Shown in pieces: positions 1 to 3,000 of a stretch of DNA of 6,064 nt. This DNA is from Escherichia coli. GTDB taxonomy: Bacteria; Pseudomonadota; Gammaproteobacteria; Enterobacterales; Enterobacteriaceae. Made by a program: the position numbers. The stretch lies in NCBI RefSeq assembly GCF_003334385.1, contig NZ_QOWN01000078.1; one strand, written 5' to 3'. How positions within the stretch are numbered: the first letter of the stretch is position 1; every line of letters starts with the position of its first letter.

Positions 1-3000
1 CAACGTCGCTCAGTACAGAGGGATTTGAAAGCTGTTTCTCCATCTGGTTAAAGGCATTGATGTATGCCTCTTTGAACCGGGCAGCACGTTTACCCGTGAA
101 ACCCATAGCAAGAAACGCAAAACCGTCTCGTGTGATTTGATAGCAAGGGAGCTTGCGTGTACCACCGTTCGGTTGATTTACCGAAATCGATGTCTCCGCA
201 AAATTGCGGGCACAAAACTCAGGGGAACAATCCAGAGTGCGGATCTTTTTCAGCACATCGTCGTGACGCTTGGAGAAGAAGTTGGCAACAGCCAAAGAAG
301 TGGTAACGGCCTGGCCGTTGTCAATGGTGATTTCAGGTTGAGTGAGGGCTGGGATCGTAGCCATGATGGCAGCCTCCGTTGACAGTGAAAAACTTCCACC
401 ACCGGAAACGCCAATTTCACTGGTGGTGAACTGGACGGGGTTGGCGTAACCGGCGTCAACGGAGACCGGCGCACCTTTCGGTGCCCCCGCCCAGCCCACC
501 ATAATCTGGATGTGAGCAAATGCGGACGATAAAAAAGACGCTGGCGCGTCATACATCGCCGTTGACAATTTCAGGACGCCAATCCCGGCACCCGCTTTAT
601 AAGGTGCCTGAGCAGTGTAACGTCCCGGAATTGCAGAATCAATATGCAGGTGGTCCTTCACACTCAACAAAATCACGCCTGAATTTCCACAAAGGACTAA
701 AGCACTCATGCGGGTAGTCTTTGCGAAGATAGATAACGCGCTGTGTTTCTGGCTCCCAACGAATAACATGAACATAAAGTCCTCTTCCGTCACGAAACCA
801 GCGGTTAAGTTCCTGCACAACTCGCCCCCCACAGTCAGGTAAAGTTCTCTGTGGTTACTTACAGCCAGGTGATTTGGTAATCTGCATTCATGCCGTAACA
901 ACAGGTGTTCAGCGACGCTGACCACCAGCTGTTGCGACAAACGGTTATTTGCCGTTAAACTGTTCATGCGTTAGTTTCTCCACAGACACAAAACGCCACG
1001 ACGCCCGGAGCTGCACACTCGCGGGCGTCACTCTTTTCTGGAGCGCAAAAGATTTTGTAGACCAGTGCTGCATGCTCCTGGAGCTTCGAAATTGACAGAT
1101 ACAACTCATCATTAATTGCTGTCTGCTCGTGTGGCTCCACTACCCCATCTTCGATTGCCGAACGAATCTGCTTTGAGTAACTCCCGATCTGTTCGATGAC
1201 TTCCAGCAGGCGCTGGTTTATATCGGCGTTCTCTACTTCCTCAATTTCAGGAAGCGATACAAACACCCCACCAGCAGACTGTGCGACAGCATCCGCAATG
1301 TAGTGAGTGCCAGCCGCGCGCTGTAAAATCATTGCCCATCCCAGCGGGAAAATCTGATCGCCATCTGCACGAAGGCGGTTGAATAAAGCGTTCTCTGTTA
1401 CATCCAGCCACTCAGCAGCTTCAGCGTAACCCCCCGGCAACGCCGCGATAGTTTTTCTGACAGCTTTCACGTACCACTCAGGCTGTTTTTCCACTTTCCA
1501 GTGATGATTACCCACGGCTTACCTCCTGTTCCTGTGGTTTAAACCCATTCTGGTTTTGGCTAGATTGAAAACGTGCCGGATAAAGAATCTGCATTTCGCT
1601 GATTTCACCCTTAAAAAAATTGGCCAGACGTTCTGCAAGATCGATAGATGGAATTTGTTCCAGTCTTTCAATACGACTCAGCGTCGCTGGATTGACCTGA
1701 ACGCCCGCAGCAACATGCTGCAAAGTAAATCCGTGCGCCTTACGCACATTCCGTAATGGTGATTGCATATAACCTCCACATATTGCGTGATGAGCATATT
1801 ATTTCACGCAAATATTTTGCGCAAGTTGATTTGCTTAACGCGCAATAAAGAAATGTAATAAACGCATGAACATAGGAAACCGAGTCAGACAACTTCGCCA
1901 GGCGAAGAACATGAAAATCGCCGATCTCGCTGAAGCAATAGGAGTGGATGCGGCGAATATCTCACGCCTGGAAACAGGTAAGCAGAAACAATTCACTGAA
2001 CAAGCCCTGAGTAATATTGCCAGGAGCTTAGGTGTTGATATTGCTGATCTCTTTACCTCAGACGTCAAAAGTAATACTGTATGTAAAAACAGTATTAGTG
2101 AGGATGTTGCGCAGGTGAAGGATGTATTCCGTATTGAAATGCTGGATGTCAGTGCCAGTGCGGGAAATGGCCTTATCCAGGGCGGTGATGTCATTGATGT
2201 GATTCATGCCATTGAATACAGAACTGATAATGCTGTATCGATGTTTGGCGGACGGCCAGCCAATCACATTAAAGTTATCAACGTTCGTGGGGACAGTATG
2301 TGTCCAACCATTGAGCCAGGAGATCTCATCTTCGTTGATATCAGTATCAATCAGTTTGATGGGGATGGTATATATGTATTTGGTTTTGATGATAAAATTT
2401 ACGTCAAACGACTGCAAATGATACCTGATAAACTGCTGGTAATTTCTGATAATCAGATTTACCGCGAATGGGGAATTACCAGCGAAAACGAACATCGGTT
2501 TATGGTCTTTGGAAAGGTCTTAATCAGTCAGTCACAAACCCTTAAGCGACACAATTAACCCCTACCTCAACATCAATTAGCCACCAGAAGGTGGCTTTTC
2601 ATTACCCACCAAATTGCATATCTCGCAATAAAAACACTTGCATAATGCGCAACTTCATTTTATCTTTCTTTCCAGACATACAAACAAGGTACTAACAAAA
2701 TTTGGTTGTAACACGGCGTATGGCACATGCGTCGTTAGCGGTCTGGTGACGTTAAAGGGGACAATCCACTCCTTGCTCGGGCAAACAAACCAGGTAGCCG
2801 GAATGTGCAAGTCAATGATGATGCTGATAAGACGCCTAACCAGCGTGGCGATTCGGTTTGACGCCTGGGAAGAGACCAGGGTGCAACGATGAGGGCATTT
2901 ATGGAACCGCGACAAAGTGTGGTGCCGTAACTGGCTAAGTGCTCTCAGCGTTGTGGTGAATGCGCAGGCTGATGCGCGAAAGACATTGCAGCTATTGCGG

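What the first reader, a model, noticed from the sequence alone, without database searches (positions are those of the whole stretch)
1..967. Rha-family domain embedded in a long open frame that is translationally coupled to the ymfL-like gene
Rha-family proteins usually carry the Rha domain at the N terminus. Here the Rha-like segment begins at an internal Met (364-362) that has its own strong GGAGG Shine-Dalgarno 8 nt upstream, but the same frame is open for a further 201 codons upstream to an ATG at 967 that overlaps the stop of the preceding gene (ATGA). So there is either a fusion protein (unknown 200-aa N-terminal domain plus Rha) with possible internal initiation yielding a standalone Rha protein, or two ancestral genes merged by loss of a stop codon. 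The six-frame track misses this ORF because it runs off the window.
Basis: seen in the sequence. Interest (0 to 1): 0.55.

Follow-up and report, generated by a model that had tools for sequence, protein, structure and literature searches.

The report
P4-type nested Rha gene over RNAs
The long open frame is real, but most of its 'extra N-terminal domain' is the translation of an internal promoter and two known regulatory RNA genes (isrK and C4) that control the Rha start codon, a layout already known from satellite phage P4.

Summary
The minus-strand frame is open from ATG 967 (ATGA overlap with the ymfL stop) to the window edge, and GGAGG lies 8 nt before the in-frame ATG 364.

The upstream 201 codons are not an unknown protein domain:
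- Codons ~117-212 (Pfam Phage_ASH) coincide with a likely promoter, an isrK RNA (607-531) with terminator, a C4 antisense RNA (506-419) and its a2/b2 targets. The b2 target covers the GGAGG.
- The target sites and C4 loops covary three ways across many specificity types.
- Codons ~50-110 overprint a DUF4222 gene (818-639) that is under purifying selection in another frame.
- Protein-type selection begins only at ATG 364, the natural start of a 185-aa Rha protein.

The frame is nevertheless kept open. In 77 distinct relatives it has 2 distinct stop positions, against 30 and 23 in the other frames, and leader lengths are multiples of three. It usually starts at the stop of an upstream gene.

Phage P4 shows identical geometry (eta 199 codons, nested kil 65). 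There, translation of the long gene is reported to prevent immunity-dependent termination. Gifsy-1 has the same RNAs but a separate orf45.

Verdict: a new member of a known kind.

The parts
964..1515 (-). ymfL-like gene (183 aa; PHROG 'CII-like transcriptional activator'). Its TGA overlaps the ATG of the long ORF.
1..967 (-). Long 'eta-like' ORF, 322 codons in the window and 386 aa in the intact homologue. Over its first 201 codons it is kept open but not conserved as protein.
639..818 (-). DUF4222 gene (59 aa, GTG start), embedded out of frame in the long ORF. It is under purifying selection as protein.
614..642 (-). Likely internal promoter, the counterpart of PisrK/PLE: TTGATT (642-637), 17-nt spacer, TACACT (619-614), then 6 nt to the isrK 5' end. 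It translates as 'IDSAIPGRYT'.
   Evidence: It aligns positionally with the Gifsy-1 isrK promoter region. It matches only 8 of 12 consensus positions, so the scan did not report it.
531..607 (-). isrK-type RNA (equivalent to P4 seqA / P1 a1b1). It carries a1 (582-576), b1 (567-559) and an intrinsic terminator (550-531).
419..506 (-). C4 antisense RNA (P1 c4 / P4 CI type). The b' loop is at 468-454 and a' at 447-441. The ATG at 502-500 corresponds to the Gifsy-1 orf45 start.
407..416 (-). a2 target of C4 (AATTGGCGTT)
370..384 (-). b2 target of C4 (TGTCAACGGAGGCTG), covering the GGAGG Shine-Dalgarno at 377-373
1..364 (-). Nested Rha gene starting at ATG 364-362 (121 codons in the window, 185 aa in the intact homologue). 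The Rha domain is at residues 21-110, and protein-type selection starts here.

Best explanation
This is a P4-type RNA immunity and anti-immunity module sitting in the early rightward operon of a lambdoid (SfV / ST64B / e14-like) prophage. The 5'-to-3' order on the minus strand is: the ymfL stop overlapping the long-ORF ATG (967); an embedded out-of-frame DUF4222 gene; an internal promoter; an isrK RNA carrying decoy sites a1/b1 and a terminator; the C4 antisense RNA; target sites a2/b2, with b2 covering the GGAGG; and ATG 364 of the Rha gene. Shown here: the identity of the RNA elements, the complementarity and three-way covariation of the target sites, the onset of protein-type selection at ATG 364, and selection for an open, in-register frame upstream. 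Inferred by homology to P4 eta/kil, P1 c4-icd-ant and Gifsy-1 isrK-orf45-anrP: in the lysogen only the internal promoter fires. Most transcripts stop at the isrK terminator. Read-through transcripts yield C4, which pairs with a2/b2, blocks initiation at ATG 364 and so favours premature termination before Rha and the downstream replication genes. The isrK RNA can titrate C4. After induction, transcripts from the repressor-controlled early promoter are translated continuously from ymfL into the long ORF. Ribosomes then cross the terminator, C4 and b2 by elongation, so expression becomes insensitive to C4. This produces an N-terminally extended Rha, and what matters is the act of translation rather than the sequence of the extension. 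The 185-aa Rha from ATG 364 is the C4-controlled product and probably acts as an antirepressor-type regulator.
For: RNA elements: Rfam finds C4 at 81.4 bits (gathering 45) and isrK at 62.2 bits (gathering 50), both over the full model and on the ORF strand. The same pair is present in all 19 related copies, in P4 and in Gifsy-1. Pairing: the C4 loop pairs over 15 nt with 384-370, across the GGAGG, and both target motifs recur inside isrK. The a and b sites covary three ways over 6 and about 10 types. Cognate C4:a2b2 duplexes average -32.1 kcal/mol against -23.2 for non-cognate ones, and the window's own duplex has z = -5.5 against shuffled targets. Terminator: a hairpin plus T6 lies at 550-531. 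Coding signal: variable sites by codon position are flat in the leader (23/22/18, 7/7/8, 15/14/16, 11/11/10) but 43/44/95 in Rha codons 1-110, and leader substitutions are almost all non-synonymous. Open frame: 0 stops against 2-7 and 0-3 in the other frames, with leader lengths of 240, 243, 246 and 288 nt. Of 79 distinct sequences, 78 are open for at least 100 codons. Distinct stop positions number 2 against 30 and 23, and the long-frame ATG usually overlaps the stop of an upstream ORF. P4: a 199-codon frame from an ATGA overlap with ORF88 spans isrK/seqA and C4/CI, and an internal ATG leaves 65 codons, with identical GGAGGCTGCCATCATGGCT context 54 nt after C4. The mechanism is summarised in PMC10111431, section 20. 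Gifsy-1: the promoter, read-through, orf45 coupling and anrP are experimentally described in PMC4825925.
Against: There are no expression data for this locus. The internal promoter matches only 8 of 12 consensus positions. The role of translation in preventing termination is extrapolated from P4, and the primary paper (Forti et al. 1999) could not be read here. I relied on a secondary summary and on memory. For the window-specific part, codons 1-116, the evidence that openness is selected is only suggestive. The probability of the frame being stop-free given the DUF4222 protein is 0.06, the roughly 40 ymfL-type sequences are nearly identical (median 98% identity), and one of them carries an upstream stop. 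Four diverged relatives work without any long frame, so the long frame is not essential to the RNA module. The function of Rha as an antirepressor comes from annotation only.
Confidence: 0.72

Rival explanations
1. It is a genuine two-domain protein. In this view 'Ash' is a folded N-terminal protein domain with its own function, fused to Rha, as Pfam, NCBIfam and the Stx-phage literature treat it.
For: Pfam Phage_ASH matches at E = 8.6e-21. PHROG families cover Ash plus Rha. RefSeq names 'ash family protein'. The frame is kept open.
Against: The whole Pfam match (window 619-332) is accounted for by the promoter, isrK, C4, a2/b2 and the SD-ATG. There is no third-position bias and almost all changes are non-synonymous, while the adjacent Rha part shows a clear coding signature. 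The variable 'residues' are exactly the covarying RNA specificity sites. Four relatives have 3-5 stops in this frame. The same segment precedes unrelated C-terminal parts of 64, 77, 120 and 185 aa.
Confidence: 0.07
2. The long frame is an accident of conservation and composition. Only the 185-aa Rha from ATG 364 (plus DUF4222) is made, and the 386-aa annotation is an over-extension.
For: Protein-type selection starts at ATG 364. Codons 50-110 overprint another gene. The probability of the overlap being stop-free by chance is 0.06, which is not compelling. RefSeq itself is inconsistent, calling 386 aa, 300 aa or 181 aa on near-identical DNA. Several phage records leave the leader unannotated.
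Against: Distinct stop positions number 2 in this frame against 30 and 23 in the others, across 16 specificity types. Three independent indels, of 3, 3 and 45 nt, are all multiples of three. The start codons recurrently overlap the stop of different upstream genes: ymfL, P4 ORF88, and BRO-N or Rha genes. In P4, Eta is reported to be translated (PMC10111431).
Confidence: 0.15
3. It is a recent fusion. On this view a Gifsy-1-like arrangement, with a separate orf45 whose stop overlaps the antirepressor start, lost its frame offset or stop, merging leader ORFs with Rha without functional consequence.
For: Gifsy-1 orf45 is in the same frame as the 'Ash' frame across C4 and ends in an ATGA overlap with anrP, so a 1-nt change would fuse them. 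Class II relatives exist.
Against: The in-frame state is shared by P4, P4-like islands, SfV, ST64B, mEp460 and many E. coli prophages with differing specificities and differing cargo genes. The invariant GGAGGCTGCCATCATGGCT junction is common to all of them.
Confidence: 0.05

Closest known systems
Satellite phage P4 left operon: nested genes eta (ORF199) and kil, with the CI RNA, seqA/seqC and promoter PLE inside eta
   Same: The anatomy is homologous and colinear. The long ORF starts at an ATGA overlap with the upstream gene. isrK/seqA and C4/CI lie inside it. The SD-ATG junction is identical and lies 54 nt after C4. The internal start is in frame. The reported mechanism (PMC10111431, citing Forti 1999) is that translation of the long gene makes upstream-promoter transcripts insensitive to immunity.
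   Different: The nested cargo is a 185-aa Rha-family regulator rather than the 65-aa Kil. The host element is a lambdoid prophage that also has a protein repressor. The long ORF is about 100 codons longer and runs over an out-of-frame DUF4222 gene.
Salmonella Gifsy-1 isrK-orf45-anrP (PMC4825925)
   Same: It has the same isrK and C4 (STnc1160) RNAs, an isrK promoter and a leaky terminator, a downstream antirepressor-like gene, and translation across C4 coupled to the downstream gene.
   Different: Gifsy-1 orf45 is a separate 45-codon ORF. A stop lies two codons before its start, and its own stop overlaps the anrP ATG. In the window the equivalent frame is fused in frame both upstream and downstream. 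The module also sits elsewhere in Gifsy-1, next to antQ.
Phage P1 immI: c4 RNA, a1/b1 and a2/b2 sites, icd, ant1/ant2 (from my own knowledge; Rfam RF01695 and RF03163)
   Same: An antisense RNA is processed from the same transcript as its target. The b2 site covers the RBS of the first ORF upstream of, or at, the antirepressor. Specificity is set by the a and b sequences. Two in-frame antirepressor products arise from alternative starts.
   Different: In P1 the first controlled ORF is the small icd gene, which is coupled to ant. The antirepressor belongs to the Ant family, not Rha.
'Rha/Ash domain' proteins of Stx phages (PMC8951638)
   Same: This is the same protein family as annotated. That paper notes that the Ash domain has no assigned function.
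   Different: Here the Ash segment is shown to coincide with RNA genes and to lack protein-type selection.

Membership tests
C4 antisense RNA (Rfam RF01695; P1 c4 / P4 CI) | Covariance-model match above the gathering score, over the full model | tested here: met
   81.4 bits against 45, model positions 1-87 of 87, window 506-419 on the minus strand
C4 antisense RNA (Rfam RF01695; P1 c4 / P4 CI) | Loop sequences a' and b' complementary to sites upstream (a1/b1) and downstream (a2/b2), with b2 at the RBS of the next ORF | tested here: met
   A 15-nt match to 384-370 across the GGAGG, with further sites at 416-407, 586-575 and 567-559. Three-way covariation is seen across relatives, and cognate duplexes are more stable than non-cognate ones.
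C4 antisense RNA (Rfam RF01695; P1 c4 / P4 CI) | Processed from a precursor; represses translation and causes premature termination | not testable with these tools
   Needs Northern blots, reporter fusions and rho mutants
isrK / seqA-type RNA (Rfam RF01394; overlaps RF03163 c4-a1b1) | Covariance-model match, own promoter and intrinsic terminator | tested here: met
   62.2 bits against 50 and a terminator at 550-531. The promoter is only inferred: TTGATT-N17-TACACT, 8 of 12 consensus positions, positionally homologous to the Gifsy-1 PisrK region.
P4 eta/kil-type nested genes | A long ORF that starts upstream of the internal promoter, coupled to the preceding gene, spans the RNA genes and is in frame with an internal RNA-controlled start | tested here: met
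   Window. P4 geometry is identical. The pattern recurs in 77 distinct sequences.
P4 eta/kil-type nested genes | Translation of the long ORF prevents immunity-dependent termination | not testable with these tools
   Only indirect support is available: selection for openness without selection on the amino-acid sequence
P4 eta/kil-type nested genes | The nested product is Kil (65 aa, cell killing) | tested here: not met
   The nested product here is a 185-aa Rha-domain protein. The architecture is the same but the cargo differs.
Rha family (Pfam PF09669, TIGR02681) | HMM match above the cut-off, with the domain near the N terminus | tested here: met
   PF09669 at 1e-27. TIGR02681 at 93.8 bits against a cut-off of 45.95. 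The domain spans residues 21-110 counted from the internal Met.
Phage_ASH protein domain (Pfam PF10554; NCBI 'ash family protein') | HMM match | tested here: met
   8.6e-21 over residues 117-212
Phage_ASH protein domain (Pfam PF10554; NCBI 'ash family protein') | Conservation due to selection on a protein | tested here: not met
   No codon-position bias and almost all substitutions non-synonymous. The frame is closed in 4 relatives.
Gifsy-1 isrK-orf45-anrP type | A separate short ORF across C4 whose stop overlaps the antirepressor start | tested here: not met
   In the window there is no stop before or after the orf45-equivalent (ATG 502-500), and it is in frame with ATG 364
DUF4222 (Pfam PF13973) | HMM match and protein-type selection | tested here: met
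   1e-13. Third-position excess of 4/3/15 and 7/6/30, with syn/non-syn of 13/6 and 25/9.

The most novel reading that the evidence does not exclude
The long ORF acts as a 'ribosome conveyor': what is selected is its translation, not its product. It carries ribosomes from ymfL across an independently selected out-of-frame gene (DUF4222), an internal promoter, a terminator and two RNA genes, making early-operon expression immune to the prophage's own C4 RNA. Two corollaries follow. First, the widespread Pfam/NCBI 'Ash' family would be a shadow of RNA genes rather than a protein domain. Second, the filamentation phenotype assigned to K-12 YmfM, which is the truncated head of such a conveyor ORF, could belong to the embedded DUF4222 protein.
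Probability: 0.3. Interest if true: 0.6.

Novelty: new member of a known kind. Interest (0 to 1): 0.42.

Why it matters
It resolves an annotation puzzle that affects thousands of E. coli, Shigella and Salmonella prophages. RefSeq calls the same DNA a 386-aa Rha protein, a 300-aa Rha protein plus DUF4222, or a 181-aa 'ash family protein'. The Stx-phage literature lists the Ash domain as being of unknown function. Recognising the segment as a P4/P1-type RNA immunity module identifies the regulated start codon. It predicts a second, RNA-based layer of lysis-lysogeny control in these lambdoid prophages, and heteroimmunity classes that can be read directly from the a/b sequences. It also gives a testable reason why a non-conserved frame is kept open. 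The DUF4222/YmfM overlap additionally bears on which product causes SOS-inducible filamentation in K-12.

Tried and rejected
1. Treating the 200 upstream codons as a protein domain: rejected after the Rfam hits and codon-position tests.
2. 'A stop codon separates ash and rha in relatives' (L005, L006): misleading. Both of the annotated 'ash' and 'Rha' genes there each carry their own complete isrK-C4 module followed by an in-frame cargo, so they are tandem modules and not split halves.
3. RefSeq's shorter starts (M87, V98): I assumed upstream stops explained them, but the frame is open for 202 codons in those genomes too.
4. Sigma-70 scan: it did not report the internal promoter, so the promoter rests on manual inspection and homology.
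5. Reading Forti et al. 1999 (PMC94026): the paper is not held.
6. Specificity test for C4 against isrK using fixed offsets: noisy, because spacing differs between copies, so I relied on the alignment.
7. Counting stops in the ymfL-to-isrK stretch on sequences pre-selected for a long open frame: circular, and not used as evidence.
8. NCBIfam gave no family for DUF4222, for the YmfM-like part or for the orf45-like part.
9. One literature search and one in-paper term search failed because a term was under three characters.
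Full report
**1. Observation**

On the minus strand the frame beginning at ATG 967-965 is open for 322 codons and runs off the window. The ATG overlaps the TGA (966-964) of the 183-aa ymfL-like ORF at 1515-964. GGAGG lies at 377-373, followed by 8 nt and then an in-frame ATG at 364-362. Pfam finds Phage_pRha at residues 222-311 of the long frame, and also Phage_ASH at 117-212. In a 98.7%-identical E. coli prophage the complete ORF is 386 aa and is annotated 'Rha family phage regulatory protein'.

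**2. What the upstream 201 codons contain**

Rfam places two curated RNA genes on the same strand inside the 'Ash' segment: isrK at 607-531 (62.2 bits, gathering 50) and the C4 antisense RNA at 506-419 (81.4 bits, gathering 45). isrK ends in a hairpin plus T6 at 550-531, which the terminator scan also finds.

The second hairpin loop of C4 is complementary over 15 nt to window 384-370, across the GGAGG. A second C4 segment matches 416-407. Both motifs recur inside isrK, at 586-575 and 567-559. This is the a1/b1 – c4 – a2/b2 layout. Rfam holds a separate family, RF03163, for the a1/b1 sites.

Directly upstream of isrK lies TTGATT-N17-TACACT-N6 (642-614). It aligns with the promoter region of Gifsy-1 isrK (TTGACA-N18-TATATT).

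The Pfam Ash match (window 619-332) is therefore wholly accounted for by a likely promoter, two RNA genes, their targets and the SD-ATG.

**3. The RNA mechanism is under selection**

All 19 related copies fetched from E. coli genomes and phages carry the isrK + C4 pair. Only K-12 e14 lacks it. In an alignment of 20 copies, counting the window, the a sites and the b sites covary three ways (a1/a'/a2 and b1/b'/b2). There are 6 a-cores (GGCGT, GGAAA, CGCAG, CTCAC, GGTCT, GACCT) and about 10 b-cores, and b2 always abuts the SD of the downstream start. Across 19 specificity types, cognate C4:a2b2 duplexes average -32.1 kcal/mol against -23.2 for non-cognate ones, and the cognate target ranks 1st to 5th of 19 in every case. 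The window's own duplex has z = -5.5 against shuffled targets.

**4. Where protein coding begins**

In 31 distinct sequences with a Rha-type cargo, variable sites by codon position (in the frame of ATG 364) were:

| Segment | Variable sites at codon positions 1/2/3 |
|---|---|
| Promoter + isrK | 23/22/18 |
| Linker | 7/7/8 |
| C4 | 15/14/16 |
| a2-b2 | 11/11/10 |
| Rha codons 1-110 | 43/44/95 |

Pairwise, leader substitutions are almost all non-synonymous; for ST64B against the window, syn/non-syn is 1/14, 1/6, 5/16 and 0/13. Counted from the internal Met, the Rha domain sits at residues 21-110 of a 185-aa protein, which is the usual N-terminal position. ATG 364 is therefore the natural start of the Rha protein, and the 'Ash' amino-acid sequence is not selected as protein.

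**5. The frame is nevertheless kept open**

- In 12 enterobacterial copies the frame of the downstream ATG has 0 stops from the promoter to the ATG, while the other frames have 2-7 and 0-3. The isrK-to-ATG length is 240, 243, 246 or 288 nt, so three indel events, including a 45-nt insertion, are all multiples of three.
- Four diverged phages (Stx2a_F765, VT2-Sakai, a Klebsiella phage and APSE-2) have 3-5 stops in that frame. Three of them have leader lengths that are not multiples of three. Their annotators left the leader non-coding.
- A scan of viral contigs for the invariant junction GGAGGCTGCCATCATGGCT gave 79 distinct upstream sequences. Of these, 78 are open for at least 100 codons in the ATG frame, while the other frames mostly close within 8-98 codons.
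- In the 77 of these sequences with enough flanking DNA, spanning 16 b2 types, distinct stop positions within 282 nt number 2, against 30 and 23 in the other frames. The first ATG of the long frame usually overlaps or abuts the stop of a sizeable upstream ORF, typically as ATGA.
- The cargo after the junction varies: about 64-65 aa, 77 aa, 120 aa or 181-185 aa.

**6. Precedents**

*P4.* In the P4 genome, isrK (the seqA region) is at 8692-8615 and C4 (the CI RNA) at 8507-8420. A 199-codon frame starts at ATG 8767, in an ATGA overlap with ORF88, and spans both RNAs. An internal in-frame ATG at 8365 leaves 65 codons, has the identical GGAGGCTGCCATCATGGCT context and lies 54 nt after C4, exactly as in the window. 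These correspond to eta (ORF199) and kil.

PMC10111431, section 20 (citing Forti et al. 1999), describes the mechanism. A constitutive promoter inside eta gives transcripts that terminate early through the CI/seqA interactions. Kil is a truncated Eta translated on read-through. Full-length Eta is translated only from an upstream promoter and is coupled to the alpA homologue. Eta translation prevents termination. I could not read the primary paper. My recollection of it agrees with this summary.

*Gifsy-1.* isrK, C4 (STnc1160) and anrP are arranged in the same way. orf45 (MVGRMG…RRASL) starts at the ATG in the C4 5' end, equivalent to window 502-500, and is in the 'Ash' frame. A stop lies two codons upstream of its start, and its own TGA overlaps the anrP ATG. 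PMC4825925 shows experimentally that the isrK promoter drives the operon, that the terminator is leaky, that orf45 translation is needed for anrP translation, and that IsrK acts in trans.

But the window belongs to the P4-type in-frame class.

**7. The part specific to this window, codons 1-116**

Window 818-639 is a DUF4222 ORF in another frame (Pfam 1e-13).

| Comparison with the window | Substitutions at DUF4222 codon positions 1/2/3 | Syn/non-syn, DUF4222 frame | Syn/non-syn, long frame |
|---|---|---|---|
| ST64B (L013) | 4/3/15 | 13/6 | 1/17 |
| O145 prophage (L011) | 7/6/30 | 25/9 | 2/32 |

DUF4222 is thus the protein under selection there, and the long frame merely overprints it.

Evidence that the long frame is deliberately kept open over this stretch is only suggestive:
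- Synonymous-codon shuffles of DUF4222 leave the long frame stop-free with probability 0.06.
- Three different upstream contexts (ymfL type; the O145 type, where the long-frame ATG follows the upstream TAA by 2 nt; and K-12 e14) all provide a coupled ATG in this same frame.
- However, the roughly 40 ymfL-type sequences are nearly identical, and one of them carries an upstream stop.

Codons 1-49 show no clear coding signature in any frame.

RefSeq annotates near-identical DNA in three ways: as 386 aa, as 300 aa from M87 plus DUF4222, or as a 181-aa 'ash family protein' plus DUF4222. The frame is open for 202 codons in all of them.

**8. Mechanism proposed**

Shown: the anatomy and the selection patterns above.

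Inferred by homology:
- In the lysogen the S24-type repressor (window 1866-2558, plus strand) silences the early promoter, and only the internal promoter fires.
- isrK mostly terminates. Read-through transcripts yield C4, which masks a2/b2 and the SD. Rha is then not initiated, and transcription probably terminates before the downstream genes.
- Those downstream genes are co-oriented, overlap by 4 nt, and include the replication protein.
- After induction, ribosomes coupled from ymfL translate the long frame across the terminator, C4 and b2. Expression becomes insensitive to C4 and an extended Rha is made.

Rha function (antirepressor or regulator) rests on family annotation only.

**9. Novelty**

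The architecture is known for P4. C4/isrK hits inside 'Bro network' genes have been noted for PICIs (PMC10111431). For lambdoid Stx phages the literature still treats 'Rha/Ash' as a two-domain protein with an Ash domain of unknown function (PMC8951638). The added value here is threefold: placing this prophage gene in the P4 class, showing quantitatively that 'Ash' lacks protein-type selection while its frame is kept open, and identifying the DUF4222 overprint. I rate it a new member of a known kind, of moderate interest.

Noticed in passing
window 639-818 (-); L003 (K-12 e14) 3323-3661: K-12 ymfM ('cell division inhibitor YmfM') contains, in another frame, a DUF4222-like ORF with its own AAGGAGA-N7-TTG start. 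Compared with the window, the DUF4222 frame shows a coding signature (substitutions 19/15/36 by codon position, syn/non-syn 20/22), whereas the YmfM frame shows none (2/39). The ymfM preprint cloned the whole ORF, and its text has no mention of start codons, stop codons, frameshifts or DUF4222, so the filamentation phenotype might belong to the DUF4222 product.
   Followed up: partly
L005 2482-3992; L006 2213-3720; L139: Some prophages carry two complete isrK-C4-cargo modules in tandem, with different a/b specificities and different cargos (Rha and a diverged Rha-like protein), in either order. RefSeq labels them 'ash family protein' and 'Rha family' although both have the same leader. One viral contig shows a repeated module within a single frame.
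   Followed up: partly
L007 2437-2506: A P4-like island in E. coli SRCC 1675 has a 45-nt insertion between the isrK terminator and C4 that preserves the frame. RefSeq names the 185-aa long ORF 'host cell division inhibitor Icd-like protein', and the nested ORF is 64 aa, the size of Kil.
   Followed up: partly
L001, L002, L004, L008 (same DNA as window 1-967): RefSeq/PGAP annotates near-identical sequence in three different ways: 386 aa from the ymfL-coupled ATG; 300 aa from M87 plus DUF4222; or 181 aa from a GTG plus DUF4222. There is no stop codon to justify the difference.
   Followed up: yes
L019 (P4) 8168-8584: The RefSeq P4 record still annotates the historical 'cI gene product (AA 1-137)' CDS as a 'transcriptional repressor' over the CI RNA. 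It does not annotate eta, kil or the RNA.
   Followed up: partly
window 1508-2558 and 3095-5197: The surroundings are a typical immunity region. There is a divergent S24/LexA-type repressor (1866-2558, +) and a cro-like HTH gene (1768-1508, -). YfdP/YfdQ/YfdR-like genes lie on the plus strand (3095-5197), as in CPS-53-like prophages. A terminator-like hairpin sits at 1748-1732 (-), inside the start of the cro-like gene.
   Followed up: no
L020 (Gifsy-1) 33406-33480: isrJ (RF01393, 100 bits) lies just downstream of anrP in Gifsy-1. The window ends before the equivalent position, so it is unknown whether an isrJ-like RNA follows the Rha gene here.
   Followed up: no
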